Source: Saprospiraceae bacterium
GTDB lineage: Bacteria; Bacteroidota; Bacteroidia; Chitinophagales; Saprospiraceae
Assembly: GCA_029263015.1 (NCBI GenBank)
Contig: JAJCYI010000184.1
Coordinates: forward strand, 1,266-65,265
DNA length: 64,000 bases
Reading direction: 5' to 3'
Part shown: positions 3,916 to 51,534 of the stretch, piece after piece
How the letters are laid out: the number at the start of each line of letters is the position of its first letter
Numbering within the stretch: position 1 is the first letter of the stretch
Made by a program: the position numbers and the translations under genes
Notes under the pieces: model-generated
Told to the model about the DNA's origin: nothing
Databases searched by the model: none
Seen by the model: only the letters and a program-made list of their open reading frames with translations

Positions 3916-6270
3916 TCACTCGATCCACAACCGCACACCCACATATCCTCTCGCACCTACCAGCGGTGCATAAACCTGCATGGCATCGAAATACTCACCG
4001 AATGGGTTCTGTGGATCTATGATAGCGTTTTCCTGCGTATAATTGGTCAGGTTCTCGCCACCCATATAGATTTCCCACTTTTTGAAACGGCGGGTGACCT
4101 GGGCATTGACCAAAACATAAGCTGGAGAAGATCCTTCAAAATGTTCTGCATTTGGAACTGAAGCATTTAAATGGCCCTGATGGGCAAATTGCATGCTCCC
4201 CACAAATTGCATGTTGGTGTTGAACATCCAGTTATCGTCTTTGGTCTTGTAATCAATAGCCGCTAATCCCCGATGGGTCGTTGTAAGAGGTCGTTGCTGC
4301 AGGCGTTCACTCCTATTCAGATAAGGTGGATGGTAAGTTGTCTGAACATCGTTGTATTTATAGGCCAGTTTGATGTTGAAACCATCAAATGCTTCCCAGG
4401 TGGTCAGGAGCAACATGCTGTTGGAATAACTGCGACCGTTCAAATTGTAAAAGACGATCTCTTTGTGCTCGGTTTCCCGGTCGGCAACGATCTGGTTTTG
4501 GAAATCGGTCCGGTAGAAGTCGGCAACAAACCCTGCTTTGCGCCCTAGGAACTGGAAGTTTTTGGTTAAATTTAAACCCACATTCCAGGCATCTTCCATT
4601 TCCAGTTTTTCCAGTATAACAAAGGGTTGGTTGGTGGCTAACATGCTTAAATTTTCAGCCAAGACCTGCGCTGAACGAACACCCCTGCCCCCACTCACTC
4701 TTATGATGCTGTTCTCATTGAAATTGTATTTCAAATTTACCCTTGGCGTAACAAATGTGCCAAATTGGTTGTGATGATCAGCACGTAATCCAGCGATCAG
4801 GCCGAACCCAGATGGGCCAGCATAAACATATTCTGCATAAACTCCCGGCATGATTTCCTTTCTACTAAAATCAGCCTCGTCCAAAAATTCTTCAACATCA
4901 TCGTATTGGTAGTTGACGCCGAGGTTCAGTTTGTGGTCGGTCGTTCCCAAAATGGTTGCGTACATCAAATGGGCGTATAGCCGCTGTTGCTCACCCCTGT
5001 AATAAGTCCTGCCAAAAACATTGTCCGTTTCGTGCCAAGAAGCATTGTAAATAAAACCAATGGAAGTTCCTGGTTTGTCGAAGCCAAGAAAGCCAATTTT
5101 ACCAAAAAGATCAGCCCGGCGGTTGAATTGGCGGATGCGGTAGTAATCAGAAGGATCCTGGATGTCGCTGGGGAGTAATTGCCCGCTTTCCCGCTCATCC
5201 CGAATTACCTGAAGGTTGATTTGCGAACGGATATTTTCTCCACGGTAAAATGTGCGGAACAAGCCGTTCAGGGTTTCCTTTGTTGGCTGATCCTGAAAAG
5301 AATCGTTGTTTTTGTCAAACTCGCCCTGGGTCGTGCTGCCGTGCAGCAGTACGCCACTGCTCCACTTTTCGTCCCATTCTTTATTAGCATGCAAATTGAT
5401 TTCCCCCCGCTCCACGGTCGATCCAAATAGGTTTAGGAAAAATGGCTTGTCCTGAAATGGCTTTACCAGCTCCGTATTGATCTGTCCGGTCATTGCCTGA
5501 GGGCCATTCTGTACGGTGCTGGTGCCTTTTGATATCTGGATGCCGGAGACCCAGGTACCTGGAATGTAGTCGAGGGCCAAAGGCTGCGCCAATCCTGTGT
5601 ATGTGGGCCGTTTTTCCATCAACAATTGGGAATAAACGCCACGCAGGCCGAGCATTTGGATTTCCTTGGCGCTGGTAATGGCATCCTGCTGCATCACATC
5701 AATGGCGCCGTTGGTTTCAAAACTTTCGGCGAGGCTGCAACAAGCTGCTTTTTTTAGTTCCCCGCTACCTATGCGCTCCAGATTGATGGGGTCGAGCGTG
5801 GAGGTGTAATTGTCAGTCCCTTGACCGGTGATTTCTACTTCTACCAAATCAGTGATGCCTTCTATTTTAATATAAGCGGTGTCCTCGTGCGGGAACATTT
5901 CAATCAATACAGGATCGAAACCGACATAGCTTATTTCGAGGTTGGCCGTGGCCTCCATTTTGGGCAACCAAAAATCCCCGTTCATGTCAGTGATGGTGCC
6001 GATGGTAGTGCCTTCCCATTGAACAGTGGCAGCGATGAGGTTTTCGCCATCCTGGTTGAAGACGTTGCCGTAGAGCAGTTTTTGAGTACTGGTTTGGGCT
6101 TGACTGGTGGTGTGAAGTAAAAAATAAAAAGTAAAAAATAAAAAATGGAGGATTGGGTGGTTGTGGAATTGGGTTGATCGCCTTCTACTCGACTGAAAAC
6201 CAGTGTCTTGTCGAGCACATGATTTTTGTGTTGAGAAAAACGATAATGTGTAATTTATTAGCACTTTCAT
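3916..6270 (-). CDS. TonB-dependent receptor with N-terminal carboxypeptidase-regulatory-like domain
   Basis: 784-aa ORF. LYGNVFNQDGENLIAATVQWEG... matches a CarbopepD_reg-like fold, followed by plug and barrel, and the ORF ends in an aromatic-rich terminal strand (YVGVRLWIE). The start is uncertain because of a long N-terminal extension. Confidence 0.85.
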   Translation of the reverse strand: MKVLINYTLSFFSTQKSCARQDTGFQSSRRRSTQFHNHPILHFLFFTFYFLLHTTSQAQTSTQKLLYGNVFNQDGENLIAATVQWEGTTIGTITDMNGDFWLPKMEATANLEISYVGFDPVLIEMFPHEDTAYIKIEGITDLVEVEITGQGTDNYTSTLDPINLERIGSGELKKAACCSLAESFETNGAIDVMQQDAITSAKEIQMLGLRGVYSQLLMEKRPTYTGLAQPLALDYIPGTWVSGIQISKGTSTVQNGPQAMTGQINTELVKPFQDKPFFLNLFGSTVERGEINLHANKEWDEKWSSGVLLHGSTTQGEFDKNNDSFQDQPTKETLNGLFRTFYRGENIRSQINLQVIRDERESGQLLPSDIQDPSDYYRIRQFNRRADLFGKIGFLGFDKPGTSIGFIYNASWHETDNVFGRTYYRGEQQRLYAHLMYATILGTTDHKLNLGVNYQYDDVEEFLDEADFSRKEIMPGVYAEYVYAGPSGFGLIAGLRADHHNQFGTFVTPRVNLKYNFNENSIIRVSGGRGVRSAQVLAENLSMLATNQPFVILEKLEMEDAWNVGLNLTKNFQFLGRKAGFVADFYRTDFQNQIVADRETEHKEIVFYNLNGRSYSNSMLLLTTWEAFDGFNIKLAYKYNDVQTTYHPPYLNRSERLQQRPLTTTHRGLAAIDYKTKDDNWMFNTNMQFVGSMQFAHQGHLNASVPNAEHFEGSSPAYVLVNAQVTRRFKKWEIYMGGENLTNYTQENAIIDPQNPFGEYFDAMQVYAPLVGARGYVGVRLWIE

Positions 6271-6355: not shown

Positions 6356-6799
6356 CTAACAGCGGTAAGTTCCGATCCAGGGCAGTAGTTCTTTGCCAAA
6401 GGGTGGGGGAGGGAGATTAAATTCCCAAAGAAGGATCGTTGTACGAGTTGTTTTTAAATCAGAAAAAGAAAAAAGTGAATGGGTGTGAGCAGTTGCTGGG
6501 ATGTTGATTTTGAAGTTAAAACATGAAGAAAGATAATCAACATCGAGGTTAACATATTCTTCGGTACAATTGGGGCAATCCTTAGTATTTTGTTCAGATA
6601 GGGTATCGCAAATTTCAATATTACAACAAGATGCAGTTGTATCTATTTCGGAACCCCCATGACAACCAAACAGGCAGCAGGCACTAAAACCAATTGAAGC
6701 AATCACCACGATTGCGGTCAAAAAGGCTATAGTTATATGACGTGTTGTTTTGTTCAAGAAAGAAAATTTATGCAAAGATAATCGCAAAGCGAATGCCAA
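6356..6799 (-). CDS. Small Cys-rich membrane-anchored protein (possibly HYC_CC_PP-like); start uncertain (TTG)
   Basis: 147-aa ORF with one TM helix, then CC..GCHGG...SCCNIEIC...CPNC and a PPPP motif near the C-terminus. It lies directly downstream of the TonB-dependent receptor. The family name is from memory only. Confidence 0.5.
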   Translation of the reverse strand: MAFALRLSLHKFSFLNKTTRHITIAFLTAIVVIASIGFSACCLFGCHGGSEIDTTASCCNIEICDTLSEQNTKDCPNCTEEYVNLDVDYLSSCFNFKINIPATAHTHSLFSFSDLKTTRTTILLWEFNLPPPPFGKELLPWIGTYRC

Positions 6800-6837: not shown

Positions 6838-7401
6838 TTAGAGGCCGAAGATGTCTGTTACAGGAATGGTCAAGTCAGGAATACTTGATACTTCAATTTG
6901 GTCACCAGGAAAATAGAGCCGTTTTGTGAGATACCCTTTTAGAGACGGATCGGTAAAAACGAATATTTTAGAATTGTTTAAATCTACAACCCAAGATTCG
7001 GCAATGCCGGCTTTGGCATAAAGGGGCATTTTTAATTCCTGATCTTTTTCTAGGGTTGTATCTGAAACTTCGATAATGAGCGGTATATCAGTTGGAGTAG
7101 GTTTTTTATTGTCGTAAAAATTCTTTTTATAATTCAAAACAGCAATGTCAGGTTCAGGTTCAGAATAGTCATTGATACACACAGGGTTTTGGATACTGAG
7201 GATGTAATCGTCTGATAGCATTTTCTTGAAAATCCAAGTAAAACGATTAACTGTTGCGAGGTGTTTAATTCCGATGGGGCTCATGGTAATGATATTTCCA
7301 CTGATCAATTCTACTTTTTCATCTTCGGCAAGTACACCAGCCTTCACCATTCGGTGATAATCTTCTCTAGTGAATAGCTTTTGATCTATGTGCAGGGTCA
7401 T
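6838..7401 (-). CDS. Uma2 family endonuclease (DUF820)
   Basis: Motifs KVELISGNIITMSP, EPEPDIAV, LIIEVSD and AKAGIAESWVVD. The ATG at 7399-7401 is preferred over the TTG-extended track ORF. Confidence 0.85.
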   Translation of the reverse strand: MTLHIDQKLFTREDYHRMVKAGVLAEDEKVELISGNIITMSPIGIKHLATVNRFTWIFKKMLSDDYILSIQNPVCINDYSEPEPDIAVLNYKKNFYDNKKPTPTDIPLIIEVSDTTLEKDQELKMPLYAKAGIAESWVVDLNNSKIFVFTDPSLKGYLTKRLYFPGDQIEVSSIPDLTIPVTDIFGL

Positions 7402-7455
7402 GCAAATTGTTTTATCAAAGATACATGAATTAAGAATGTAGAACAACGCAACGGA

Positions 7456-9882
7456 TTAGCCCCTCACACTACTAAGTGTGAATTTCTTCACGACTGAAAC
7501 CGTCAAGTGCAATGCCACACCAAACAATGCCCAAAAAATCATTCTCGCCCGGCGGATGAGGCCGAACGTGATTCCCAATGCAGCAGTGTAGCCAAGAATA
7601 TCCAATGCAGCGCTGATTCCCAATTCGTTTACGCCCAATCCTTGGGGGATAACAAAGAAAAGGGATGCGCTGGTTGCGATAAATCCAGCTACTGCGGTAA
7701 GGTCGAAAATATCGGGAGCAAGGCCAAAGATCATGAACATGAGGTAGATTTCGACGAGGTTGAACGAACGGCCAAGGAATTTAAAGAAAAATGCCTGGAC
7801 AAACATCTTTGGCGGTACGGGATCATTGCGGTATTCCCCAACAATTTTCAGTTTTTTCAAAATAAACCCAGCAATCTTGGAAGGTGCTGAAGAAAGGGAG
7901 AGCCATACCATTCCCACTGCACTGACCATGAAAAGGCTAGCCGCAATTGTAAGGGGTACAAAAAAGACGGTGTCCAGCTCAATCGTGTACAATGTGACGC
8001 CCACGCAAAGTGCCGAGAACAGGAGTCCCGTAGTAGCATGGATCAACCGATCAACGACGATGGCCTGGCTGGCGGTGTGCCAGTCCAGCCACTGGGTAAG
8101 GTGCTTTAGTTTATGGGGTTCGCCACCAAGTCCGGCCAAGGGGATGATGGTGTTGTAAGCGTCACCGGTCAACTGGTTGTACATGAGGTCGGGGAAAGAA
8201 ACTTTTCCGTTCACAAGGATTCGCAGGCACATCGTGTTCGCCAAGATCCAGAGGATGGCCACACTGAACACGAGGAACAGTTTATTGCCTACGGCAGCCA
8301 ATGACTCAGCCACTACGCCTATTTCCATATTGAAAATGAGGGCACAAAGGATGACCACGCCAAACAGGTAAAAGTAGATTGGATTTATTTTACCAAAGAT
8401 GGTAGAGCCCGCACCTTCTTTTTGCATGGCTGATGCAGTTACTGACTTCGAGACCATGATCGCCGTTGCAGTAGTACCTAATAAAGCCAGCCAAAACATG
8501 GCTTGGTAGAGAAATACAATGCAAAACAAAAAAGTGACGAATGCCAACATATCTTGTTTGTGAAGTTCCCGCCAAAAATTGAAAAACCCGTCCAACAGCG
8601 AGGATGTATTGGCTGGTATTTCATTTTCTGGAATAAGGTTGGTAGGGTTGATCTCGTGGCGTTGGTTATAGGCCATAGAACCCATTTGCGCCAACATGTA
8701 AATGGCTAGGGCGGCCAGCATGACTACCGCGAACAGGTAAACTTGAGAACCGGTCGCATGCCAGGCACTGATGCCCAGCGCTTCAAAAAAAATGATGTAC
8801 CGCAGGTTGCTGGCAAACTGTTCGAACCATGCCCCAACGCGGGAAGTCCGCAAGGTCAGGCGGGCGAGCTCACCGTCACAACCATCAAATATGGAAGCAA
8901 GTTGGAAGATAAGTGCGCCGATGGCTATTTGTTGGTAAATGCCTGAAGAAGCAAACCATGCACCAACCATCGTCAATAAGAATACGAGTGCGGTAACAAT
9001 ATTTGGACTGACGTTGAACCTAGCCAGCCAAAAGCTGATACGAGTTGAGAAATAGCGGTTGATTTTCCGGCTTACCCAACCATCACTGGGACGGACTATC
9101 TGTTGCATCAGGCGGCGTTCTGCTTCCTTTTTCATGCTTGGGTTGTCCACATCTTGCCACATGGGCTTTTCAAGTGAAACTGCCCTGACCCCACTTTCAT
9201 CAATAAATTCCTGGATGATATTGCTGACGGAATTGGTGCCGTTTTTTGCGAGGTTGCCCACTCGCTTACCATAGTTCTTCGGAAAATAAAAAAGGCCAGT
9301 ATCTACTAGGTCGTATTCGGTGATCTCTTTCCCAATATTGTTGATGAACCCTTCTTTTGAAGCCACTTTGGTCGCATCATCCATATCAAAAACATCGTGG
9401 AGTTCAGGATCACAGGCAAGTGCTGGGAGGTGGGGCTGCTCTGTTGTTTCTTGAATAAAATCCTGAATGGTCGCCGGAGAAAAAATATGATCGGACATAG
9501 TCAATAAAAACGGCTCATCAAATCCCGCGGCCCCTGCTCCGAACGAAACCCCGTTCCCTTTTTCAAAATCTTCGCATACGACATATTCCACATCAATGTC
9601 TTTCAACCGGTTCAGCTTTTGCATTTCCGGTACGACCTGATCGCGGTACGCGCCTACCACGATACGGAAATGCTCCACACCAGCTTTGTTCAAAGTGAGG
9701 ATAGCCCGTTCCAGTAATCGGAGGCCACCGACTTTCATCAAGACCTTGGGTTTAAGAACCCCACTTTCCCTAAACCGGGAACTTTTGCCAGCTGCCAGGA
9801 TGACAGCATTTTTGACGGATATTAGAGCATTTGCGCCGGACAATAATTGCGTAGCTGGAGTAGCCACCGTTGTTGGTTTCAT
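7456..9882 (-). CDS. Tri-domain membrane protein: nucleotidyltransferase + CDP-alcohol phosphatidyltransferase-like + flippase-like (LPG-synthase-TM type) domain
   Basis: 808 aa. The N-terminus has VILAAGKSSRF (NTP-transferase loop). The middle has DGELARx8GAWFEQFAS, a CDP-OH-P motif with the last two Asp replaced by E and S. The C-terminal third is polytopic and contains NTIIPLAGLGGEPHKLKHL. Confidence 0.75.
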   Translation of the reverse strand: MKPTTVATPATQLLSGANALISVKNAVILAAGKSSRFRESGVLKPKVLMKVGGLRLLERAILTLNKAGVEHFRIVVGAYRDQVVPEMQKLNRLKDIDVEYVVCEDFEKGNGVSFGAGAAGFDEPFLLTMSDHIFSPATIQDFIQETTEQPHLPALACDPELHDVFDMDDATKVASKEGFINNIGKEITEYDLVDTGLFYFPKNYGKRVGNLAKNGTNSVSNIIQEFIDESGVRAVSLEKPMWQDVDNPSMKKEAERRLMQQIVRPSDGWVSRKINRYFSTRISFWLARFNVSPNIVTALVFLLTMVGAWFASSGIYQQIAIGALIFQLASIFDGCDGELARLTLRTSRVGAWFEQFASNLRYIIFFEALGISAWHATGSQVYLFAVVMLAALAIYMLAQMGSMAYNQRHEINPTNLIPENEIPANTSSLLDGFFNFWRELHKQDMLAFVTFLFCIVFLYQAMFWLALLGTTATAIMVSKSVTASAMQKEGAGSTIFGKINPIYFYLFGVVILCALIFNMEIGVVAESLAAVGNKLFLVFSVAILWILANTMCLRILVNGKVSFPDLMYNQLTGDAYNTIIPLAGLGGEPHKLKHLTQWLDWHTASQAIVVDRLIHATTGLLFSALCVGVTLYTIELDTVFFVPLTIAASLFMVSAVGMVWLSLSSAPSKIAGFILKKLKIVGEYRNDPVPPKMFVQAFFFKFLGRSFNLVEIYLMFMIFGLAPDIFDLTAVAGFIATSASLFFVIPQGLGVNELGISAALDILGYTAALGITFGLIRRARMIFWALFGVALHLTVSVVKKFTLSSVRG

Positions 9883-10178
9883 TCTAAAATATTGTACGTA
9901 GTTATTTTCAAAAAAATACTTTAGGACTAAATACCCTTTATTAATTGGTCAAACAAAAAAAAGTTGCATCAAAATGAGATCATTTGCAACCAATTTTTGG
10001 TTTGGGTGAAGTCCTTGTTAAAGCTTGACTATCAGTCTTTTTGGCTATAATGTGGATTTTGGCGCAAAGGTATATACAATGTTGTGGAAAATGAAAAGAA
10101 CGTTGTACTGATTATTGACAGGTAGAAGTTTGGGCGGGAATAATAGATGAATGAGTAATTGAGCGAATTTATTTTTTT

Positions 10179-10263
10179 GATTTAAGATTACATGATTTAT
10201 GGTTTTTGATTTAAGATTTGGTGCTCCCAGAATCAAAAACCTAAAATCATGTAGTCTTAAATC
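10179..10263. repeat. HP-F hairpin repeat, copy 1 (33-bp imperfect inverted arms)
   Basis: GATTTAAGATTACATGATTTATGGTTTTTGATT ... AATCAAAAACCTAAAATCATGTAGTCTTAAATC with 3 mismatches. Shares the 18-mer GATTTAAGATTACATGAT with the copy at 52121-52188. Confidence 0.75.
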
Positions 10264-10276
10264 TCAAGTTTGGACT

Positions 10277-10411
10277 CATACTACTGGACATTAGACGATA
10301 GATTTTTAGACATTAGACTATTTCAAACGTATAAATTTATAATAACCAATGACCTATGGATTTTACAGCGTCTAATGTCTATCGTCTAATTGTCTAATGT
10401 CCGGTAGTATG
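10277..10411. mobile_element. MITE (135 bp) with the termini of the IS4-family element at 42756
   Basis: Ends are CATACTACTGGACAT... and ...ATGTCCGGTAGTATG. Flanked by GTTTGGACT / GTTTGGATT, an 8/9-matching 9-bp target duplication. No ORF. Confidence 0.8.
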
Positions 10412-10436
10412 GTTTGGATTTTCGATTTTGTTGTAA

Positions 10437-12107
10437 TTATCTTGCTATCAGTAGTTTGCTCGCCTCTTGTTGATTGATTCGGACGAAATACATGCCGTTG
10501 GTGAGTGATGAAACATCAAGGTATTTGCGCCCACCAGTGAGGCGCATCAAAGCGATCACTTGACGCCCCATAATATCCACCACGTCAACATCCACCCAAA
10601 CGCCACCTTCCCATTCGATGGTGATCCTGTCAGTAGCAGGGTTTGGATAAAGAGCCAGCTGGAAATTGTCGAATTGGGTAAACACGGGAAGTATTTCATC
10701 ACAGAAATTGGTGTCAGGGTTCAATTCGAGCCAACCTTTTGGTGAAAGATCCCTGCCATTGAAACCTTCAAAATCAGCAGGATAACGTTCTGCCCGATAG
10801 GTCAAATTATTATTGATTTGGAGGGTGTCGCCTTGTGAAACCGATTGCCCCATTTTTAGTGGTGTCACGTATTCCCAGGCCAGATCGTTGTTGGGCGTAA
10901 GCTCAAAAATATAACCCTGTCTGCCAGCACAAACGAGGAAGTTGCCATTGTCTAACACTTGCAAACTTGATAGGCCGGTGGAAAAAACATCAGTAGGAGT
11001 CGGATGCGTGAGGTCAAGGTCATAAGTAGTGGGTCCCCAAACACCATTGGTCTGCGTATAACGCCATTCGTACATGTCCCAAGGCGGAGTGAAAACGTTA
11101 AAAGATGAAAAATCAGCACCAGCTCTGTTGTTGAAAAATGACATTTTTCCATATAGTGGGTGTGTCGGACTGACAAAATCATCGACCCATCGAACATCAT
11201 GGTTAAAAAACATGGTCTGATCGTCGGAGGTGCCTTGGTTGTATGCTAGAAGGTTGCCCCAGCGGTACATGAAATCACCGCCATCGCCACTCAATCCACC
11301 CGAATGGCTTGCTGCCTGAGCGGTTGTGGTGGAATGGTCAATGATGTAGGCTTCATTCATGAAAGGGGAACTGAACACAATTTGATTGAGGAGTGGGTTG
11401 AAATCGAGGGCGTTGGAATGCAACCAGTCACGCCCCCCGTCGTTCGTCGTGAAGTTGATATTGAGGAGTTCAGGGCTGTCGGCCACCACTCCAAAATTGT
11501 CTTTTGTCTGATCAAAATCCTGCACCATATGATCCCATAAATGCCATTCCCAAATGATGTCATTGGTATTGGGGTCAATTTCGAAAACCCATTCTGACCA
11601 AACCTCACCGTCTGGAATAAGTGCAGTGTCCCGACCAGCTTGCAAAGCTTCGGCCATAGTTTTGTTTTCCCATGCCAGCGCCAACACATTGCCATTTTCT
11701 GCTATCGAAAAATCGTGGTGCAGCCGGTTGAGGGAGTCGTTCATTTCAAAACTCCAAATAAGGTCATTGTCCCAGGAACGGATTTCAATGATGGCCCCGC
11801 CACCGCCAGCCCAAATGGCATCGTTGCCAATTGCTGAGTGGCGTTTGGCTTTATATAAATCGCCATTGGGCATAATATAAGCTGTATTTCCAGGTCGGAA
11901 ATCAGAGGAATCCTCCCACACGTGAGCTATTTCACCACAGTTGTCCAACAAGTAAACATTGGGCTGATTGTGCGGAAAAATGAGGTTGAAACCTTCATAA
12001 GCTTGGCCGGGGTTATATGAAAGAAGCCCCACGGTGTTGTCCTGTGCAATAGCTGCAGAAAGGAGGAAGGAAAAAATGATGTAGGTAGAGAGTAATTGTT
12101 TTTTCAT
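10437..12107 (-). CDS. Arylsulfotransferase-like beta-propeller protein with T9SS C-terminal sorting domain
   Basis: Signal peptide starts at ATG 12105-12107 (MKKQLLSTYIIFSFLLSAAIAQ). Has WEWHLWDH and HHD motifs. The C-terminus LYPNPATDRITIEW...NGMYFVRINQ is a type-A T9SS CTD. The family call is from memory of ASST-like proteins. Confidence 0.65.
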   Translation of the reverse strand: MKKQLLSTYIIFSFLLSAAIAQDNTVGLLSYNPGQAYEGFNLIFPHNQPNVYLLDNCGEIAHVWEDSSDFRPGNTAYIMPNGDLYKAKRHSAIGNDAIWAGGGGAIIEIRSWDNDLIWSFEMNDSLNRLHHDFSIAENGNVLALAWENKTMAEALQAGRDTALIPDGEVWSEWVFEIDPNTNDIIWEWHLWDHMVQDFDQTKDNFGVVADSPELLNINFTTNDGGRDWLHSNALDFNPLLNQIVFSSPFMNEAYIIDHSTTTAQAASHSGGLSGDGGDFMYRWGNLLAYNQGTSDDQTMFFNHDVRWVDDFVSPTHPLYGKMSFFNNRAGADFSSFNVFTPPWDMYEWRYTQTNGVWGPTTYDLDLTHPTPTDVFSTGLSSLQVLDNGNFLVCAGRQGYIFELTPNNDLAWEYVTPLKMGQSVSQGDTLQINNNLTYRAERYPADFEGFNGRDLSPKGWLELNPDTNFCDEILPVFTQFDNFQLALYPNPATDRITIEWEGGVWVDVDVVDIMGRQVIALMRLTGGRKYLDVSSLTNGMYFVRINQQEASKLLIAR

Positions 12108-12162
12108 GAAAACATTGATTGTCAAAATTGAGAATTGAGATATTACTCATCAATTCAAAAAC

Positions 12163-13833
12163 TTATTCTTTTATAAATTTCTGTGTTAAAAACTGCGTCT
12201 GTCTTTCATTGGACAAGCGAAGTAAATATAATCCTGGCACCCAGCCACTGACATTCATGTGTATTTGATAATTCGCTGACGTTTCTGACCTGATCAATTT
12301 TCCGGTTAAATCCCAGATTTCAATATTGACAGGTTTACCGGTTTCATTTTCGATCAGCATTGTTTCGCCAACAGGGTTATTTCTCAACCAGGTAGCTAGG
12401 GGGGCTGTGGGAGCTGAGGTTGACAGTGGGTTTTCATCGTAGATAATACAATCTGATGGCCACGGGTCTAATTCCACGGGATTTCCTAGAGTGAGGTCTT
12501 TTCCCTCAAAAGCAGGATAATCGGCAGGGTAGCGGGTGGCTCGGAAAGTATTATTGTTGTTGGGCTGGAGACCCTGTACCACTGGGCCGCTTATTCCTGA
12601 GACGGGGTTGATGTATTCCCAGACTACTTCTCCGTCTAATGATACTTCGAACATCTGCCCAGAAGTGCCTTCACAAATAAATTGGTTGCCATTGGGCAGG
12701 CAATGCGCCCCTGAGATATTGGCTGAATAAAAACCTGGTTCTTCATATGTCCAATCAAGATCGGTTGGGCCAAAAGGTTCATTGTCATTGATGAAGTAAC
12801 TCCCATTACTATTAGTTGGTGGAGTCCAAATATCAATAGAAGAAAAATTGCCACTGGGTCGACCTTGACCATTATTAAATACCATCAATTTACCAAAGTG
12901 GGGGTGGTTTTCAGCTAATATCCAAGTAACGTTGTGCTGGCCATAGAGGGTCTGCTCCGAATCGCCACCCCTATCATACACGCTGGGGTTTCCCCAGCGG
13001 TAGAGTAGGTCGCCACCTTTACCAGAATTACCTCCAGAATGACCAGTCGCTTCAGCCGTAGTAGTGCTGTGGTCAATGATCCATATTTCACTTAAATGCC
13101 TACTGCTCAGTACAATTTGATCAAGCTCGGGGTGATAGTCCACTGCGTTTACATGCACCCAGTCAACGCTACCACCGGGGAATCCACCGTTAGGGCCTCC
13201 ATAATTAATATCAACAAGTTCAGGGTGGTCGGCCACTGTGCCATAATTCACTCTGGTGCTGTCAAAGTCCTGTACCAGATGGTCCCACAAATGCCATTCC
13301 CACACCGCGTTGATGTCGCTGTCGCCCACCATTTCTATCTCCATGATTTGTTCCGGCCAGATGCCGTTGTTGCTGATGGCGCTGGGATCCCTGCCAGCTT
13401 CGATTGCTTCGATTTGGGTGCGGGCTTCCCAAGCGATGAGCAGGAAATTGCCATTTGGCAGGGGTTCAATATCGTGGTGTTGGTGGTAGTTTGGCGTTGC
13501 ATAATTATGAAACCAAAGCAGTTCGCTTTCCCAGTTGAACAGTTCAATGCGGCCAGCAATACCTCCTCCTGTGAAAGCACCTCCGATCCTGCAGGTCCTG
13601 AGCAGGTCACCATTTTCAAGAAGGTAAATAGCGGTGTTGCTGGTAAAATTGCTTTCCCAGGTATTGACCACAAAACCACAATTATCGATCAGATAAGTCG
13701 TATTGCCGTTGCCAAACAAAGTATAGCCATTTACCGAAAGGGAATCGTTCAAGAACAAGCCAACGGTTTGCTGGGCTTGGATTTGGGTAGAAATGAATAA
13801 AGAAAGGAAAGAGAGAAGTATGAGTTTTTTCAT
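12163..13833 (-). CDS. Arylsulfotransferase-like beta-propeller protein with T9SS CTD (tandem paralog)
   Basis: 556 aa, collinear with the neighbour (WEWHLWDHLVQDFD, IIDHSTTTA, YRWGNP conserved). CTD is ...GLYLLRLSNERQTQFLTQKFIKE. Confidence 0.65.
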   Translation of the reverse strand: MKKLILLSFLSLFISTQIQAQQTVGLFLNDSLSVNGYTLFGNGNTTYLIDNCGFVVNTWESNFTSNTAIYLLENGDLLRTCRIGGAFTGGGIAGRIELFNWESELLWFHNYATPNYHQHHDIEPLPNGNFLLIAWEARTQIEAIEAGRDPSAISNNGIWPEQIMEIEMVGDSDINAVWEWHLWDHLVQDFDSTRVNYGTVADHPELVDINYGGPNGGFPGGSVDWVHVNAVDYHPELDQIVLSSRHLSEIWIIDHSTTTAEATGHSGGNSGKGGDLLYRWGNPSVYDRGGDSEQTLYGQHNVTWILAENHPHFGKLMVFNNGQGRPSGNFSSIDIWTPPTNSNGSYFINDNEPFGPTDLDWTYEEPGFYSANISGAHCLPNGNQFICEGTSGQMFEVSLDGEVVWEYINPVSGISGPVVQGLQPNNNNTFRATRYPADYPAFEGKDLTLGNPVELDPWPSDCIIYDENPLSTSAPTAPLATWLRNNPVGETMLIENETGKPVNIEIWDLTGKLIRSETSANYQIHMNVSGWVPGLYLLRLSNERQTQFLTQKFIKE

Positions 13834-14613: not shown

Positions 14614-15567
14614 TTATCGTTTCACAAACCGCTGGCTCATCCAGCCTTCTTCTGTCTGGATTTTAAGCACATAAATGCCCAGTGGCAATGTATTCACTTG
14701 GAAGGACTGGCGACCTGGTTGGATCGCGGTACGGGCAACTAATATTCCGTTCATGTCAAAAACGACAGCTTGTGCAGCCAATGGTTCGTTCCATTCAACG
14801 GTAAGGTAGTCAGTCGTTGGATTTGGGAATGTCTCCACGGCAAAGTCAACAACCTGCTCGTTCAGTCCATCAATAATCACTGTTTCCACATTGTCGATAC
14901 AAAAGTAAGCAGGGGTGTTCATGCCGAATTGGCCGATATCACTGGAACTGAGAAAAAAAGACAAGCTGTCCACATCGCCCAGTGTTGACAGATCAACAGT
15001 TTGCCAATCATTCACAATGTAGTCCATGTTGTTGTCATCGAACCGGTAGTCTGCCAAGTAAAATTCCACGCTGTCGCTGGTCAATTGGCCGCCTTTCCAA
15101 CTTTTGATGGTGAGCAGGAAAAAATCGGGGTCGTTGCCATCTTCGCCGCCGAATTTTTTTGCGAATGCGTCGCCGTCTAACATGCTCAGGTAAGCATAAG
15201 TGGCGTTGGTCACTTGTAGTTTATAAACATCCACAGCGCCGGTTTTGATCTGGGTGCTCCCCAAAACAAAAGAAACGGCATAAGTGGTTGAGCCATCGGC
15301 TCCGCTTCCTGCGATGGCACTGTACTGGTTTGTAAATCCTGGGGTTTGGGTATCGGTGGTTGCAGAGATCGCCCATCCCGACCAGGATGCCCAAGTGTCG
15401 TTATAAGAATTTGGGAAAAAGAGCCCTTCCGAGTCAAAGCCCTCGTTGCCGTCGCTGCCGTTCAAAAATTCACCAGCCGTTAAATTGAATTCTTCAAAAT
15501 CTACAAGCTGTGCGAATAATCCGCTGAATGTCAAGAGTGCAAAACAAAGAGTAATTGTTTTTTTCAT
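14614..15567 (-). CDS. DUF4465-like secreted protein with T9SS CTD
   Basis: 317 aa with a signal peptide. N-terminus is FEEFNLTAGEFLNGSDGNEGF...WSGWAISATTD...NQYSAIAG. C-terminus is FPNPTTDYLTVEW...GIYVLKIQT. Second gene of the riboswitch-controlled operon. Confidence 0.7.
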   Translation of the reverse strand: MKKTITLCFALLTFSGLFAQLVDFEEFNLTAGEFLNGSDGNEGFDSEGLFFPNSYNDTWASWSGWAISATTDTQTPGFTNQYSAIAGSGADGSTTYAVSFVLGSTQIKTGAVDVYKLQVTNATYAYLSMLDGDAFAKKFGGEDGNDPDFFLLTIKSWKGGQLTSDSVEFYLADYRFDDNNMDYIVNDWQTVDLSTLGDVDSLSFFLSSSDIGQFGMNTPAYFCIDNVETVIIDGLNEQVVDFAVETFPNPTTDYLTVEWNEPLAAQAVVFDMNGILVARTAIQPGRQSFQVNTLPLGIYVLKIQTEEGWMSQRFVKR

Positions 15568-31971: not shown

Positions 31972-33243
31972 CTACGTGCCCCACAGCCTCGCCGCTCTCG
32001 CATGTGCCTGAAACGAAAACAGCAAGACACCTGCAGCCACCACACATACATAAATCAGTGCCCATTCCATTTTTCCGATTATCGCTAAGGCGAAAAAAAG
32101 CAGGGCAAACCATTCCCGTTTTCCGAGCAGTTCAGCTGTTTGCATCAGGCGGTCGAACCAACCACTTCCTTCCCGGAATCCGTATTCCACAGTCAGCAGT
32201 TTTCCGTCCTTGTTGAAGCGTTTGTAATAAAGGATAATGCTCCCCATCATACAAAGGGACAGCACCAAAGCAGCTATACTGGCCATTTTCTCAAATGGTG
32301 AAATGCCATCTCGGAACAGCCCAATCAGGAATCCTACCAAGGCTGCCAGATATGCGAGGTTATCGCACATAAAGTCAAGCCATTTTCCATAGAGCGAACT
32401 TTTGAATTTGAGCCGCGCCAGTTCACCGTCTACCCCGTCGAGTATGGAGGTGAGGTGAAACAATGCCCCGCCGACCAGAAACCCCCAATAGCCACCTTGT
32501 GCAAATATGTACGCGGTGATCAAACTTGGTATGACCAGCACCAAAGTTACCTGATTGGGCGTGATGTGGGTTTGCGAAAGCAAGCGGCTGAACAAGGTGG
32601 AGACGGGGCGGTTTAAATTACGGGAAACCCAGCCGTCGTTGGGTTTGGTGAGGTTTCGGATAAGTGATTTCTCAATTTTTTGCACATCAGCCTGACTATT
32701 GACTGCGTGGCAAAGTAGAGAGGAGGAATACGAGCGTAAAAATCTGTTTTTAGAGAGCGTGTTTTCGCCGGACAGTATCGTTGTAATTTTGGTTTTACTC
32801 AGAAATTTAGGGCCGAACAATACCAGTTTTTGGTTTTTAATGGTGAGAAGCTGGTGAGGATTTCGGAGGTTTTTGTCCAGCATCTTTTTCAGTAACAAGG
32901 GGTCAATGACCAATGGCTCGGAAAGAAAGAACAAGCCATTGCTGGGGGGCAGTTTGAGGTAACTTTGGAATACTTTTTCCAGATTGCTATTTTCAACAAT
33001 GGAAAAAGTAAGCGACCAGGACGGGGCATTTTTTATCAAGCAGCGAAGCTTTTCTGCATCTTCGTTCGCTAAAACGGTGATATGTTCCACCCCAGCTTTT
33101 TCGAGGGCACGAAAGCTGCGTTCCATGATGGTCAAGCCTAGGATTTCATATTTGATGGGGTTGAAAGAACGGTTGGAGTTTGAGGGAGGAGAGAGGGCGA
33201 TGATTGCTTCGAGTCGAGAGAGGCTTGTGTTTTGCATGGACAA
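31972..33243 (-). CDS. Degenerate nucleotidyltransferase-like domain fused to an intact CDP-alcohol phosphatidyltransferase
   Basis: 423 aa with DGELARx8GKWLDFMCD (complete DGx2ARx8Gx3Dx3D). The N-terminal domain aligns to the 808-aa paralog, but the G-rich loop is replaced by IIALSPPSNSNRSF. Confidence 0.75.
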   Translation of the reverse strand: MSMQNTSLSRLEAIIALSPPSNSNRSFNPIKYEILGLTIMERSFRALEKAGVEHITVLANEDAEKLRCLIKNAPSWSLTFSIVENSNLEKVFQSYLKLPPSNGLFFLSEPLVIDPLLLKKMLDKNLRNPHQLLTIKNQKLVLFGPKFLSKTKITTILSGENTLSKNRFLRSYSSSLLCHAVNSQADVQKIEKSLIRNLTKPNDGWVSRNLNRPVSTLFSRLLSQTHITPNQVTLVLVIPSLITAYIFAQGGYWGFLVGGALFHLTSILDGVDGELARLKFKSSLYGKWLDFMCDNLAYLAALVGFLIGLFRDGISPFEKMASIAALVLSLCMMGSIILYYKRFNKDGKLLTVEYGFREGSGWFDRLMQTAELLGKREWFALLFFALAIIGKMEWALIYVCVVAAGVLLFSFQAHARAARLWGT

Positions 33244-35427: not shown

Positions 35428-36063
35428 TCAATTCATATTTTCCTCCTCTGTAAAAATCTCTTCCAAAGGGATTCCCAATCCTTTGAATACATTGGAAGTC
35501 AAAATATCTTTGTCCGTAAATGTGGGAAGAATGCCAATAAATTTATGGGTGGTTTCATCCAATATATAAACATGTGCCACTCGGTGTTCTGGGTCAACCA
35601 CCCAATATTCCAAAACGCCCGCTTCTTGGTACAGTTCAAACTTATCCTTCATCTCCAGTCTAGAATTGCCTGGCGATAATATTTCAACCACCAAATCGGG
35701 AGCGCCCACGCAGCCCTGTTTGTCGAGTTTGCTTTGGTCGCAGACCACGCATAAATCGGGTTGCACAACCGTATCAATTTTGTTGCCTTTCATTTTGTGT
35801 TTTGGCAAAGGCAAACGCACATCGAACGGGGCGGAAAAAAGGTCGCAATTTTTTTTGGAGAAATAAATACCTATTGATGTATGTAAATAGCTCGATACTC
35901 TCTGGTGCTGCACATTTGGTGCTGCCATAGGAAACAAGCGCCCTTTCAGCAGTTCAACCCTTTCTTTGAAATGCCAGAGGAGGTAGTCTCCGTAATTGTA
36001 ATGCTGTTTGGGATCCAGCTGTTGGAGTGAATTTATCATAATTTCTTTTGTTGAAGACCCCAT
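35428..36063 (-). CDS. Uma2 family endonuclease (start uncertain: 36063 or 36039)
   Basis: RVELLKGRLFPMAAP, VQPDLCVV, PDLVVEILSPGN and EAGVLEYWVVDP. Confidence 0.85.
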   Translation of the reverse strand: MGSSTKEIMINSLQQLDPKQHYNYGDYLLWHFKERVELLKGRLFPMAAPNVQHQRVSSYLHTSIGIYFSKKNCDLFSAPFDVRLPLPKHKMKGNKIDTVVQPDLCVVCDQSKLDKQGCVGAPDLVVEILSPGNSRLEMKDKFELYQEAGVLEYWVVDPEHRVAHVYILDETTHKFIGILPTFTDKDILTSNVFKGLGIPLEEIFTEEENMN

Positions 36064-49006: not shown

Positions 49007-49241
49007 TTTTTTCGATTTGGCGACAAAGTAAAAAATCATTTGAAAATGGAAAGAATTGAGATGGGTTTTATTAAAATGATTACATAACGGACTATCTGAA
49101 CAAGCCTTAATTAATTTGAATGGTTTGAGGCAACGCCTATCCTCCCGCTCTTTCAGCTCAAAGGCGTTACCTCAACTTTGGCTGAATTTCCCCTCCTTTT
49201 GTACCTTCGCCAATCACCAACCAATCACCAGTCAACCACTT

Positions 49242-51431: not shown

Positions 51432-51534
51432 TGGTTATAGAAGCCAAGTTGAGATTCTGATAGCACCTGCAAGTGATTTGCAGGTTGTTGGCATAACGAT
51501 ATTTCCTTACCTTTGTACAGTAAAAAATCCAGCC

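What the first reader, a model, noticed from the sequence alone, without database searches (positions are those of the whole stretch)
7456..9882. Tri-domain lipid-headgroup enzyme: cytidylyltransferase + CDP-alcohol transferase-like + flippase-like domain in one 808-aa polypeptide
The first two domains match the architecture of archaeal/thermophile IPCT-DIPPS (nucleotidyltransferase fused to CDP-alcohol phosphatidyltransferase). To my recollection they also match a proposed alternative CDP-inositol-dependent route to inositol lipids in some Bacteroidota. Here a C-terminal LPG-synthase-TM/flippase-like domain is added, which would couple headgroup activation, transfer and possibly translocation. 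The transferase motif reads DGELAR-x8-G-x3-E-x3-S, so the last two canonical Asp, which are essential in solved CDP-alcohol transferase structures, are E and S. The substrate is unknown, and no inositol-phosphate synthase lies in the window.
Basis: partly seen in the sequence, partly recalled or inferred. Interest (0 to 1): 0.7.

Follow-up and report, generated by a model that had tools for sequence, protein, structure and literature searches.

The report
Lipid-headgroup fusion enzyme with dead transferase
This Saprospiraceae-type bacterium encodes a three-part membrane protein that looks like an all-in-one lipid-headgroup factory, but its middle (transferase) part has lost its catalytic residues, and a separate gene 22 kb away, carrying the opposite defect, most likely does that step.

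Summary
An intact 808-aa ORF lies at 7456-9882, on the minus strand. It has three significant domains: an IPCT-like cytidylyltransferase, a DIPPS-like CDP-alcohol phosphotransferase (CDP-AP), and LPG_synthase_TM. Ungapped alignment to solved structures puts E354 and S358 where the last two signature Asp (D3, D4) should be.

The "one polypeptide does everything" reading is probably wrong for this protein.
- Relatives at 50% identity or less keep D3 and D4.
- The query's clade forms one group that has lost D4 everywhere (S/G/A/N/K/Q) and usually D3.
- That clade's CDP-AP domain evolves about 1.35x faster than its neighbour domains.
- A nested subclade has deleted the CDP-AP domain entirely (595-aa NTase-LPG_TM proteins).
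- The cytidylyltransferase residues R36, K46 and D131 are invariant.

The window also encodes an AF2299-like protein at 31972-33237 (minus strand). It has an intact signature but a gutted cytidylyltransferase-like domain. Such a protein co-occurs in five genomes carrying degenerate or domain-less versions.

Best model: a split pathway. The fusion activates the headgroup and probably translocates the product; the AF2299-like partner transfers it. A conserved lipoprotein and an outer-membrane barrel gene lie downstream. The headgroup alcohol is unknown, and no MIPS lies in the window. I rate this a new variant of a known kind, of moderate interest.

The parts
7456..9882 (-). Tri-domain ORF, 808 aa: cytidylyltransferase + degenerate CDP-alcohol phosphotransferase + LPG_synthase_TM
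   Evidence: ORF list and translation. Pfam and NCBIfam hits. AF2 model with pLDDT 84.3. About 100 homologues in Saprospiraceae/Bacteroidota MAGs.
9097..9813 (-). IPCT-like (COG1213-type) cytidylyltransferase domain, aa 24-262, predicted active
   Evidence: Pfam NTP_transf_3. PDB 4jd0 (E 3e-18) and 2xme (E 2e-17) by sequence, and TM 0.82-0.85 by fold. The signature KNAVILAAGKSSRFRESGVLKPKVL lies at 9739-9813. R36, K46, D131 and the DxxDATK, DTG and WQDVD motifs are invariant in 59 homologues.
8473..9087 (-). Six-helix CDP-alcohol phosphotransferase-like domain, aa 266-470, predicted catalytically dead but possibly still CDP-binding
   Evidence: Pfam PF01066, 41.6 bits. Aligns to 4mnd and 4o6m. 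PNxxT, D1xxD2GxxAR and G2 are kept; D3 and D4 are lost. The domain diverges 1.35x faster than its neighbour domains in this clade, against 0.96x in the DD clade.
8809..8886 (-). Degenerate signature DGCDGELARLTLRTSRVGAWFEQFAS (D3 to E354, D4 to S358)
   Evidence: Translation. Ungapped alignment to solved structures. State of this position across 59 homologues.
7537..8364 (-). LPG_synthase_TM (MprF-flippase-like / UPF0104) domain, aa 507-782
   Evidence: Pfam PF03706, E 1.2e-19, 71.3 bits against a cutoff of 33.4. HpnL subfamily E 2e-15. 42-44% identical to stand-alone LPG_synthase_TM genes that follow split NTase-CDP-AP genes in L002, L016 and L039.
31972..33237 (-). AF2299-like partner candidate, 421 aa: cytidylyltransferase-like domain without catalytic residues + CDP-alcohol phosphotransferase with an intact signature
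   Evidence: Pfam PF01066 only. NCBIfam IPCT/DIPPS E 3e-27 over aa 174-403. AF2 pLDDT 89.6, pTM 0.84. Foldseek top hits are AF2299 entries 4q7c/4o6n (E 1e-13, TM 0.76 over both domains). In the aligned homologues shown the family lacks the LAAGxxxR..K signature and the DATK/DTG segment, and Pro replaces the catalytic Asp.
32362..32439 (-). Intact signature DGVDGELARLKFKSSLYGKWLDFMCD (all eight conserved residues)
   Evidence: Translation. D3 and D4 are kept in all 63 closest Bacteroidota homologues, P0121-P0183.
6356..6799 (-). Small Cys-rich lipoprotein-like ORF (147 aa), conserved downstream partner of the tri-domain/595-aa gene
   Evidence: Homologues (28-33% identity, E down to 1e-21) sit at the same position in L003, L004, L005 and L086-L088. 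No Pfam or NCBIfam hit. Sequence.
3916..6270 (-). CarbopepD_reg_2 + TonB-dependent-receptor-like outer-membrane barrel (784 aa), conserved downstream partner
   Evidence: Pfam CarbopepD_reg_2. SusC/RagA N-terminal and weak TonB-receptor hits. Orthologues at 57-71% identity follow the tri-domain/595-aa gene in L003-L005 and L086-L091, and none was found at the DD-type loci held at that point (Pfam context).

Best explanation
The ORF encodes an inner-membrane protein of a Saprospiraceae-type Bacteroidota lineage with three parts in three different states.

(1) The N-terminal IPCT-like cytidylyltransferase is intact. It most likely makes a CDP-activated polar alcohol from CTP and a phospho-alcohol. 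The activity is inferred. The substrate is unknown; inositol-1-phosphate is the leading candidate but is not established.

(2) The DIPPS-like CDP-alcohol phosphotransferase domain keeps its fold and the nucleotide-binding half of the signature (PNxxT, DxxDGxxAR, G). It has lost D3 and the catalytic base D4. It is best read as a catalytically dead scaffold or CDP-binding module.

(3) The C-terminal LPG_synthase_TM domain, homologous to the MprF flippase domain, handles or translocates the lipid-linked product (inferred).

The missing phosphotransfer step is most likely done in trans by the AF2299-like protein at 31972-33237. That protein has the converse pattern: a dead cytidylyltransferase-like domain and an intact signature. 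CDP-APs are TM3/TM4 dimers, so a heterodimer with the dead domain is possible, but this is speculative.

The conserved downstream lipoprotein and CarbopepD_reg/TonB-like outer-membrane barrel probably belong to the same envelope pathway.

Evolutionary order: a fully active tri-domain enzyme, then loss of D4, then motif decay, then deletion of the domain, always in genomes that hold an AF2299-like transferase.
For: SHOWN
- Domains and motif are as described.
- Of 59 full-length homologues, the 20 most distant (50% identity or less) keep D3 and D4. The other 39 lack D4 (S/G/A/N/K/Q) and show E/G/A/S/N/Q/D/R at D3. Some also lose D2, G1, A or G2.
- In an NJ tree of the NTase domain the degenerate sequences form one clade. 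The 595-aa NTase-LPG_TM class, in which the CDP-AP domain is precisely excised, nests inside it.
- The CDP-AP domain diverges 1.35x faster than the flanking domains in the degenerate clade, against 0.96x in the DD clade.
- NTase catalytic residues are invariant.
- Literature: D1-D4 bind the di-metal site and D4 is the catalytic base (PMC6506517). D4N nearly abolishes activity without loss of substrate binding, and the eight signature residues are 'absolutely conserved' (PMC4634129).
- The partner has an intact signature and a degenerate NTase-like domain, and it resembles AF2299 by fold.
- Same-genome co-occurrence in five genomes:
  - the window itself
  - Kow0027 (P0030 'AG' + P0152)
  - D6714 (P0049 'DG' + P0164)
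  - CAZDSU01 (590-aa P0076 + L022)
  - WGNL01 (595-aa P0085 + L036)
  - A sixth, syntenic pair sits on two contigs of one metagenome.
- The complete 6.19-Mb genome with a DD-type protein (P0057 / OZ244935.1) yielded no AF2299-like gene in the genome scan or the protein search.
- One Cyclobacteriaceae cluster (L039) holds a stand-alone NTase, an AF2299-like gene, two LPG_synthase_TM genes, a CarbopepD_reg gene, a GT4 and a GMC oxidoreductase.
- The GMC / GFO-IDH-MocA / 276-aa membrane-protein trio sits beside the AF2299-like gene in about 11 genomes (the 276-aa gene alone in about 20), and beside the active NT-CAP gene in L002.
Against: - No biochemical data exist for any family member.
- The CDP-AP tree places the partner with AF2299-like proteins of other phyla, not with the tri-domain clade. 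It is an old paralogue that may have its own separate function, not a recent reciprocal duplicate.
- In this window the two genes are 22 kb apart and are not co-transcribed.
- The ES subclade conserves E354 and S358, so a non-canonical chemistry cannot be formally excluded. E at D3 occurs in apparently conserved 'ED' CDP-AP genes of other phyla.
- IPCT-like fold does not fix the substrate. CpgD, whose top structural hit is also 4JD0, uses phosphoglycerate (PMC12275187).
- The residue after D4 is N here. It is R in AF0263 and AF2299 and always R or K in PIP synthases (PMC6506517). This argues against an inositol-phosphate acceptor.
Confidence: 0.55

Rival explanations
1. First reader's model. 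The single polypeptide is a fully active tri-functional enzyme. Its transferase uses a non-canonical E...S active site to move the activated headgroup onto an acceptor, and the C-terminal domain flips the product.
For: The fold and the nucleotide-binding half of the signature are kept. E354 and S358 are conserved within the closest 'ES' subclade. Glu at D3 occurs in other, apparently conserved CDP-AP genes. DD-type relatives with the same architecture probably do work this way.
Against: D4 is the catalytic base, and even D4N nearly abolishes activity (PMC4634129). Across the clade the two positions take many chemically unrelated residues (G, A, S, N, K, Q), the motif decays further in some members, and the domain is deleted in a nested subclade. 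The domain also evolves faster than its neighbours.
Confidence: 0.08
2. The functional core is NTase + LPG_synthase_TM alone, as in the 595-aa class. The CDP-activated alcohol is used by the LPG_synthase_TM domain itself (a transferase rather than a flippase) or by an unrelated enzyme. The AF2299-like gene serves a different pathway, and its co-occurrence is phylogenetic coincidence.
For: The NTase-LPG_TM fusion without any CDP-AP domain is a stable, conserved architecture (P0065-P0088). The partner belongs to an old lineage distinct from the tri-domain clade. It sits in its own operon with GMC, GFO, GT4 and epimerase genes in most genomes. The function of stand-alone PF03706 proteins is not known, as far as I am aware.
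Against: L039 clusters a stand-alone NTase directly with an AF2299-like gene and with LPG_synthase_TM and CarbopepD_reg genes. The same GMC/GFO/276-aa trio accompanies whichever gene carries the live CDP-AP domain (L002 against L036). The 595-aa-class genomes checked (2 of 2) carry the partner.
Confidence: 0.22
3. The system makes a soluble phosphodiester solute (like di-myo-inositol phosphate or glycerophosphoinositol), as the archaeal IPCT-DIPPS does, and the LPG_synthase_TM domain exports it.
For: The closest characterised relatives, AF0263 and AF2299, do not process lipids. The six-TM architecture is typical of CDP-APs with soluble acceptors (PMC4634129). The best NCBIfam model is IPCT/DIPPS.
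Against: - The score is far below the equivalog cutoff (226 against 580).
- The Arg after D4 that binds the acceptor phosphate is absent.
- The neighbours are envelope and lipid genes: an OM barrel, a lipoprotein, and in relatives Lipid_DES desaturase, an acyltransferase and a GT4.
- From general knowledge, DIP is a marker of hyperthermophiles, and these are environmental Saprospiraceae MAGs.
Confidence: 0.05
4. The whole gene is decaying and no longer functional.
For: Loss of catalytic residues in one domain. A Uma2 gene is inserted directly downstream where relatives carry a TM2-domain gene.
Against: The 808-codon ORF is intact. NTase catalytic residues and many LPG_synthase_TM positions are invariant across 59 homologues. 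Mean pairwise identity is 70% in the NTase domain and 61% in the LPG_TM domain within the clade. Synteny with two partner genes is conserved.
Confidence: 0.03

Closest known systems
Archaeoglobus fulgidus AF0263 IPCT-DIPPS (PDB 4MND), bifunctional CTP:inositol-1-phosphate cytidylyltransferase / CDP-inositol:inositol-1-phosphate transferase
   Same: Same order of an N-terminal cytidylyltransferase and a six-TM CDP-AP domain. Sequence E 2.8e-40. Best fold match, E 1e-20, TM 0.78. NTase catalytic residues are conserved.
   Different: D3 and D4 are replaced by E and S. The Arg after D4 is replaced by N. A roughly 300-aa LPG_synthase_TM domain is appended. NCBIfam score is 226 against a cutoff of 580. 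The host is a mesophile-type Bacteroidota MAG lineage. Substrate is unproven.
A. fulgidus AF2299 (PDB 4O6M/4O6N/4Q7C), a CDP-alcohol phosphotransferase with an N-terminal cytidylyltransferase-like domain whose physiological role is, to my knowledge, unknown
   Same: The window's second gene (31972-33237) has this architecture. Foldseek E 1e-13, TM 0.76 over both domains. The signature is intact. The N-terminal domain has the fold but not the catalytic residues.
   Different: About 22% identity only. Bacterial. N rather than R follows D4. In Saprospiraceae it sits in an operon with GMC and GFO/IDH/MocA oxidoreductases, a duplicated 276-aa membrane protein and a GT4 glycosyltransferase.
Putative alternative (CDP-inositol, Kennedy-like) inositol-lipid cluster of Bacteroides vulgatus / Prevotella (Heaver et al. 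2022, PMC9246714)
   Same: An NTP-transferase plus a CDP-alcohol phosphatidyltransferase in Bacteroidota. Genes annotated 'lysylphosphatidylglycerol synthase' (BT_1521-like) and CarboxypepD_reg-like (BT_1527-like) lie nearby. Here the former is fused and the latter lies downstream.
   Different: No MIPS and no HAD hydrolase in the window. The parts are fused here, whereas they are separate genes there. The transferase domain is dead. That pathway is itself unconfirmed.
MprF flippase domain (Pfam PF03706 LPG_synthase_TM)
   Same: The C-terminal domain matches the family (E 1e-19).
   Different: No lysyl-PG synthase catalytic domain is present. It is fused to headgroup-activation modules instead. 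Flippase activity is untested.
Caulobacter CpgD, CTP:phosphoglycerate cytidylyltransferase for ceramide diphosphoglycerate (PMC12275187)
   Same: An IPCT-like (COG1213) cytidylyltransferase that feeds an envelope-lipid headgroup. Its top structural hit is also 4JD0.
   Different: CpgD is a stand-alone soluble enzyme. No sequence comparison was done here. It is cited to show that IPCT-likeness does not fix the substrate.

Membership tests
Bifunctional IPCT/DIPPS (NCBIfam NF041135; AF0263 type) | N-terminal cytidylyltransferase with G-x-x-x-R...K signature and catalytic Asp | tested here: met
   LAAGKSSR36...PK46 and D131 are present and invariant in 59 homologues. Pfam hit, plus PDB 4jd0/2xme by sequence and by fold.
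Bifunctional IPCT/DIPPS (NCBIfam NF041135; AF0263 type) | CDP-AP signature D1xxD2GxxAR...GxxxD3xxxD4 complete | tested here: not met
   E354 and S358 stand at D3 and D4 in ungapped alignments to 4mnd and 4o6m.
Bifunctional IPCT/DIPPS (NCBIfam NF041135; AF0263 type) | Score at or above the curated equivalog cutoff | tested here: not met
   226 bits against a cutoff of 580.
Bifunctional IPCT/DIPPS (NCBIfam NF041135; AF0263 type) | Basic residue directly after D4 that binds the phosphate of the inositol-phosphate acceptor | tested here: not met
   N359 here. AF0263 and AF2299 have R. This position is always K or R, and essential, in PIP synthase (PMC6506517).
Bifunctional IPCT/DIPPS (NCBIfam NF041135; AF0263 type) | Substrate is L-myo-inositol-1-phosphate, with a MIPS (ino1) in the genome | not testable with these tools
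   No MIPS domain in the 64-kb window. None lies next to any relative examined.
CDP-alcohol phosphotransferase superfamily (Pfam PF01066) | Homology and fold of the six-TM domain | tested here: met
   41.6 bits against a cutoff of 22. Helical model aligned to 4mnd and 4o6n.
CDP-alcohol phosphotransferase superfamily (Pfam PF01066) | Catalytic competence (eight absolutely conserved signature residues) | tested here: not met
   Six of eight are kept; D3 and D4 are lost. The domain is therefore filed as a pseudoenzyme member.
MprF (lysyl-phosphatidylglycerol synthase/flippase) | LPG_synthase_TM flippase-type domain | tested here: met
   PF03706, 71.3 bits against a cutoff of 33.4, aa 507-782.
MprF (lysyl-phosphatidylglycerol synthase/flippase) | C-terminal aminoacyl-PG synthase domain | tested here: not met
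   No such Pfam or NCBIfam hit. The protein ends about 26 aa after the TM domain.
Bacteroides/Prevotella alternative inositol-lipid cluster (Heaver 2022) | NTP transferase + CDP-alcohol phosphatidyltransferase + HAD hydrolase clustered with MIPS | tested here: not met
   NTase and CDP-AP are present (fused). HAD and MIPS are absent from the window. The LPG-synthase-like and CarbopepD_reg-like accessory genes are present.
AF2299-like CDP-AP (applies to the partner gene 31972-33237) | Cytidylyltransferase-like N-domain without catalytic residues + intact CDP-AP signature | tested here: met
   Foldseek 4q7c/4o6n E 1e-13, TM 0.76. Signature intact. No NTase Pfam hit, and the catalytic R, K and D are absent.

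The most novel reading that the evidence does not exclude
The dead CDP-AP domain is a pseudoenzyme scaffold. It heterodimerises through the TM3/TM4 interface with the AF2299-like live transferase. This places the only active transferase site between a membrane-tethered cytidylyltransferase and a flippase-like domain, forming a two-protein assembly line for a so-far undescribed Bacteroidota envelope lipid. That lipid would carry a polyol or inositol-type phospho-headgroup, be further glycosylated by the linked GT4, and be handed to a dedicated outer-membrane barrel. If true, this would give AF2299-like proteins, whose structure is solved but whose physiological role is to my knowledge unknown, their first physiological context. 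It would also document a natural series from active to dead to deleted domain in a membrane enzyme.
Probability: 0.25. Interest if true: 0.75.

Novelty: new variant of a known kind. Interest (0 to 1): 0.55.

Why it matters
Fusions of IPCT-DIPPS-like modules with an MprF-type flippase-like domain sit in databases under automatic names such as 'CDP-L-myo-inositol myo-inositolphosphotransferase' or 'lysylphosphatidylglycerol synthase domain-containing protein'. The literature searches run here found no paper describing them.

This locus warns that the annotation over-reads the protein, because the transferase domain lacks its catalytic base.

It also offers a clean evolutionary series: active, then inactivated, then decayed, then deleted, with a complementary AF2299-like enzyme present in the same genomes.

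It links four gene families of unknown role: LPG_synthase_TM stand-alone proteins, AF2299-like transferases, CarbopepD_reg outer-membrane barrels (the BT_1521 and BT_1527 types noted beside Bacteroides inositol-lipid clusters) and a duplicated 276-aa membrane protein. Together they form one testable envelope-lipid pathway in a large environmental family (Saprospiraceae).

Tried and rejected
Degenerate tri-domain genes were therefore not retrieved, and absence calls are weak. Co-occurrence had to be pieced together from locus tags and WGS prefixes.
- Foldseek of the whole model was dominated by nucleotidyltransferases, and no MprF entry appeared in the 50 rows shown. The flippase-like assignment therefore rests on Pfam and NCBIfam only.
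- The search for MIPS and HAD in the window was negative. MIPS in the rest of the genome could not be checked.
- A 'recent duplication with reciprocal degeneration' scenario was considered and rejected. The CDP-AP tree groups the partner with NT-dead proteins of other phyla, not with the tri-domain clade.
- Promoter and terminator scans were at background level.
- The 276-aa operon protein and the small 147-aa ORF have no significant Pfam, NCBIfam or PDB match (weakest hits E 0.08 and 0.24).
- NCBIfam hits of the operon's GFO and GT4 genes are generic, with IolG, levoglucosan dehydrogenase, MshA and BshA all far below cutoff. They do not identify the headgroup.
- Look-up of the window's own protein gave only a short Logan contig, so the source assembly is not identified.


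Full report
**1. Observation**

The ORF lies on the minus strand at 7456..9882 (ATG start, 808 aa).
- NTP_transf_3, aa 26-152, E 2e-15
- CDP-OH_P_transf, aa 292-398, E 2e-10
- LPG_synthase_TM, aa 507-782, E 1e-19

The best NCBIfam model is the Thermococcales IPCT/DIPPS equivalog (E 8e-67 over aa 25-471). It scores 226 bits against a cutoff of 580, so the protein is related but not an equivalog.

phmmer against PDB sequences gives AF0263 IPCT-DIPPS (4mnd, E 2.8e-40), AF2299 (4o6m), and the stand-alone IPCTs 4jd0 and 2xme. Across the signature the alignments are ungapped: query ...DGCDGELARLTLRTSRVGAWFEQFAS... against 4mnd ...DGCDGEIARASLKMSKKGGYVDSILD.... E354 and S358 therefore occupy D3 and D4.

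An AlphaFold2 model built on 59 homologues has mean pLDDT 84.3. Its best PDB fold match is 4mnd (E 1e-20, TM 0.78 on the target), followed by the IPCT structures (TM 0.82-0.85).

No MIPS or HAD domain occurs in any plausible ORF of the window.

**2. The family and the state of the transferase motif**

A search of the 5.8-billion-protein collection returns about 100 full-length relatives, almost all from Saprospiraceae/Bacteroidota MAGs. Three architectures appear:
- tri-domain, about 800 aa
- NTase + CDP-AP, about 495 aa
- NTase + LPG_synthase_TM, about 595 aa

In a 59-sequence alignment, the 20 sequences at 50% identity or less to the query keep D3 and D4. The other 39 lack D4 (S, G, A, N, K or Q) and carry E, G, A, S, N, Q, R or occasionally D at D3. 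Several have decayed further: DGIDRQVSR in P0013/P0015; EGSEKDLAR (P0035) and EGSEQDLAR (P0036); also P0024 and P0027.

The 595-aa proteins are a precise excision of the whole CDP-AP domain, with the NTase joined to the first helix of the LPG_synthase_TM domain.

A neighbour-joining tree of the NTase domain puts all degenerate sequences in one clade, with the 595-aa class nested inside it. DD-type tri-domain proteins and split NT-CAP proteins are basal or sister to that clade.

Within the degenerate clade the CDP-AP domain diverges 1.35x faster than the mean of the two flanking domains. In the DD clade the ratio is 0.96x. Column conservation at D3/D4 is 0.33/0.62 against 1.0/1.0.

By contrast, the NTase signature (A26-G32, R36, K46), D131, DxxDATK, DTG and WQDVD are invariant in all 59 sequences. 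The nucleotide-binding elements of the CDP-AP domain (P293-N-x-x-T297, D333, D336, G337, A340, R341, G350) are mostly retained.

In a profile-free scan of 1.84 billion representatives:
- Only about 15 clusters at 50% identity have the full tri-domain span.
- Of those, only the query's own clusters carry a degenerate motif.
- One NTase-less CAP-LPG_TM representative (P0257) is also degenerate.

**3. What the literature says about D3 and D4**

The four Asp coordinate the di-metal site, and D4 is the presumed catalytic base (M. tuberculosis PgsA1, PMC6506517). In MtPIPS 'even a conservative D to N mutation' at D4 gave 'near complete abrogation' of activity 'without compromising substrate binding'. 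The eight signature residues are described as absolutely conserved (PMC4634129).

Taken together with the drift, decay and deletion in section 2, the middle domain of the window protein is best read as catalytically dead. It may still be able to bind CDP.

**4. A second, complementary gene in the same window**

ORF 31972..33243 (minus strand; the likely start at 33237 gives 421 aa) hits PF01066 only and the IPCT/DIPPS model over its C-terminal half (E 3e-27).

Its signature DGVDGELARLKFKSSLYGKWLDFMCD is complete. All 63 closest Bacteroidota homologues (P0121-P0183) keep D3 and D4.

Its N-terminal 200 aa align to the NTase domain, but in the homologues aligned:
- they lack the LAAGxxxR...K signature,
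- they lack the whole DATK...IGKE...VDTG segment,
- a Pro stands where D131 should be.

The AF2 model (pLDDT 89.6, pTM 0.84) matches AF2299 best (4q7c/4o6n, E 1e-13, TM 0.76 across both domains). AF2299 is the archaeal CDP-AP with an N-terminal 'cytidylyltransferase-like domain' (PMC4634129).

So the window encodes two converse proteins:
- a live NTase with a dead transferase (plus the flippase-like domain)
- a dead NTase-like domain with a live transferase

**5. Do the two go together?**

Same-genome pairs were found in five genomes:
- the window itself
- Kow0027 (P0030 'AG' with P0152)
- D6714 (P0049 'DG' with P0164), both by locus-tag prefix
- CAZDSU01 / GCA_964508135.1 (590-aa P0076 with L022)
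- WGNL01 / GCA_016124585.1 (595-aa P0085 with L036)

A sixth probable pair (P0004 'ES' and P0126) lies on two contigs of similar coverage in one metagenome, each syntenic with the window.

The one complete DD-type genome (OZ244935.1, 6.19 Mb, P0057) gave only the tri-domain locus in the genome scan. No protein from a 6.19-Mb contig appears in the partner's homologue list.

Gene-context evidence:
- In a Cyclobacteriaceae contig (L039) one cluster holds a GMC oxidoreductase, a stand-alone NTase (269 aa) overlapping an AF2299-like gene (400 aa), two LPG_synthase_TM genes, a GT4 glycosyltransferase and a CarbopepD_reg gene.
- Around the AF2299-like gene there is a conserved operon: GMC oxidoreductase, GFO/IDH/MocA oxidoreductase, a 276-aa duplicated membrane protein, the AF2299-like gene itself, a GT4, and an epimerase-like gene. 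The full GMC/GFO/276-aa trio is present in about 11 Saprospiraceae/Lewinellaceae genomes, and the 276-aa gene and/or the GT4 flank the gene in about 20.
- The same GMC/GFO/276-aa trio lies next to the active NT-CAP gene P0112, which is itself flanked by two LPG_synthase_TM genes.
- The accessory genes thus follow whichever gene carries the live transferase.

A caveat on history: the CDP-AP tree groups the partner with NT-dead proteins of Myxococcota and other phyla, apart from the tri-domain clade. This is complementation by an old paralogue, not reciprocal decay after a recent duplication.

**6. Neighbourhood of the tri-domain gene**

Downstream on the same strand lie:
- a Uma2 gene (6838-7446),
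- a 147-aa Cys-rich lipoprotein-like ORF (6356-6799),
- a 784-aa CarbopepD_reg_2 / TonB-receptor-like barrel (3916-6270).

Orthologues of the last two (28-33% and 57-71% identity) follow the tri-domain or 595-aa gene in every degenerate-clade locus examined. None was found at the DD-type loci held at that point. Relatives have a TM2-domain gene where the window has Uma2.

Heaver et al. note that LPG-synthase-annotated (BT_1521-like) and CarboxypepD_reg-like (BT_1527-like) genes accompany both Bacteroides inositol-lipid clusters (PMC9246714). The same pair of families recurs here.

**7. Mechanism proposed**

Each step carries its evidence status.
- Step 1, inferred from conserved catalytic residues: the NTase domain makes a CDP-alcohol at the cytoplasmic face.
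- Step 2, inferred from motif states, co-occurrence and gene context: the AF2299-like protein transfers the phospho-alcohol to an acceptor. The dead domain may serve as scaffold or CDP-binding hand-off. A heterodimer is speculative. It is prompted by the TM3/TM4 dimers of all solved CDP-APs and by second-protomer residues lining the acceptor site in PgsA1.
- Step 3, inferred from homology and from recurrent fusion/fission: the LPG_synthase_TM domain handles or flips the lipid product.
- Step 4, conjectural: the lipoprotein and outer-membrane barrel act downstream.

The alcohol is unknown.
- For inositol-1-phosphate: the IPCT likeness and the Bacteroides parallel.
- Against it: no MIPS was seen, N rather than R/K follows D4, and CpgD shows that an IPCT-like enzyme can use phosphoglycerate (PMC12275187).
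- Solved six-TM CDP-APs use soluble acceptors, and lipid-acceptor enzymes carry extra C-terminal helices. The fused LPG_synthase_TM helices might fill that role in DD-type proteins.

**8. Comparison and novelty**

The protein works like an IPCT-DIPPS front end bolted to an MprF-type flippase domain. It fails membership tests for a functional DIPPS on three counts: the signature, the equivalog score and the acceptor Arg. It is not MprF, because it has no synthase domain.

The architecture is in databases under automatic names, but the literature searches run here returned no paper describing it. The pseudoenzyme state, the domain-loss series and the AF2299-like complement are new observations.

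I rate it a new variant of a known kind, with interest 0.55. Confidence in each claim:
- about 0.8 that the transferase domain is inactive
- about 0.55 for the in-trans model as a whole
- about 0.35 for inositol as the headgroup

Noticed in passing
window 9883-10440: The 558-nt intergenic region upstream of the tri-domain gene holds two long inverted repeats: 10179-10211 / 10231-10263 (33-nt arms, 91% complementary) and 10277-10299 / 10389-10411, with a nested pair at 10307-10327 / 10361-10381. They look like REP or terminator-type hairpins downstream of the arylsulfotransferase gene.
   Followed up: no
window 6838-7446 (-), 35428-36096 (-), 51343-52047 (+): Three Uma2-family (PF05685, putative restriction endonuclease) genes lie in one 64-kb window. 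One is wedged 9 nt after the tri-domain gene, where relatives carry a TM2-domain gene on the opposite strand.
   Followed up: partly
L036:9034-9861 (also L002:5292-6071 and about 20 other loci): A highly conserved 276-aa polytopic membrane protein with an internal duplication. The motif W/G-x-Y/W-KD-x-P-x-EGF-x-W-x-x-F-RS occurs twice. It has no significant Pfam, NCBIfam or PDB match. It always lies directly upstream of the AF2299-like transferase, and also near the active NT-CAP gene of L002. It is a candidate new family in this pathway.
   Followed up: partly
L005, L086, L088 (595-aa-class loci): Upstream of the NTase-LPG_TM gene lie a Lipid_DES/FA_desaturase (sphingolipid-desaturase-like) gene, a second CarbopepD_reg + OMP_b-brl_3 protein (about 945 aa) and, in L086/L088 but not L005, a DUF4890 protein. 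A PF01553 acyltransferase also lies upstream in L086 and L088. This hints at a sphingolipid or acyl-lipid context.
   Followed up: no
window 9739-9882: Public gene calls for this protein (P0001, 760 aa; P0002, 753 aa) start at an internal Met. That removes the cytidylyltransferase G-x-x-x-R...K signature. The longer 808-aa ORF is the conserved one.
   Followed up: yes
L044, L047, L049-L051, L053-L055, L057, L058, L060, L063, L068: In Latescibacterota, Zixiibacteriota and unclassified 'bacterium' complete genomes, a 483-486-aa NTase-CDP-AP gene is followed about 2.4 kb downstream by a second CDP-AP gene (417-567 aa) whose signature reads E at D3 and D at D4. This is a conserved 'ED' variant.
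   Followed up: no
L020, L022, L026, L036: Many Saprospiraceae genomes carry a second AF2299-like gene (385-426 aa, signature intact, about 36-40% identical to the first) within 2-5 kb of the first.
   Followed up: no
window 10437-13833 (-), 14614-15567 (-), 15626-17632 (-): Two tandem arylsulfotransferase (ASST) genes carry T9SS C-terminal sorting domains. Beyond them lie a 152-aa ORF with no Pfam hit, then a DUF4465 T9SS protein and a TonB-dependent receptor. The ASST genes are syntenic with the relative in L092.
   Followed up: no
window 42826-44004 (+), 49116-51431 (+): A DDE_Tnp_1 transposase gene (an insertion sequence) and a large B12-binding radical SAM protein (771 aa).
   Followed up: no
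L090:17567-18406: An MptA/B-family (mycobacterial lipomannan-type) mannosyltransferase gene lies 7 kb downstream of the degenerate tri-domain gene P0040. It may be coincidental, but it is notable given the inositol-lipid/PIM analogy.
   Followed up: no
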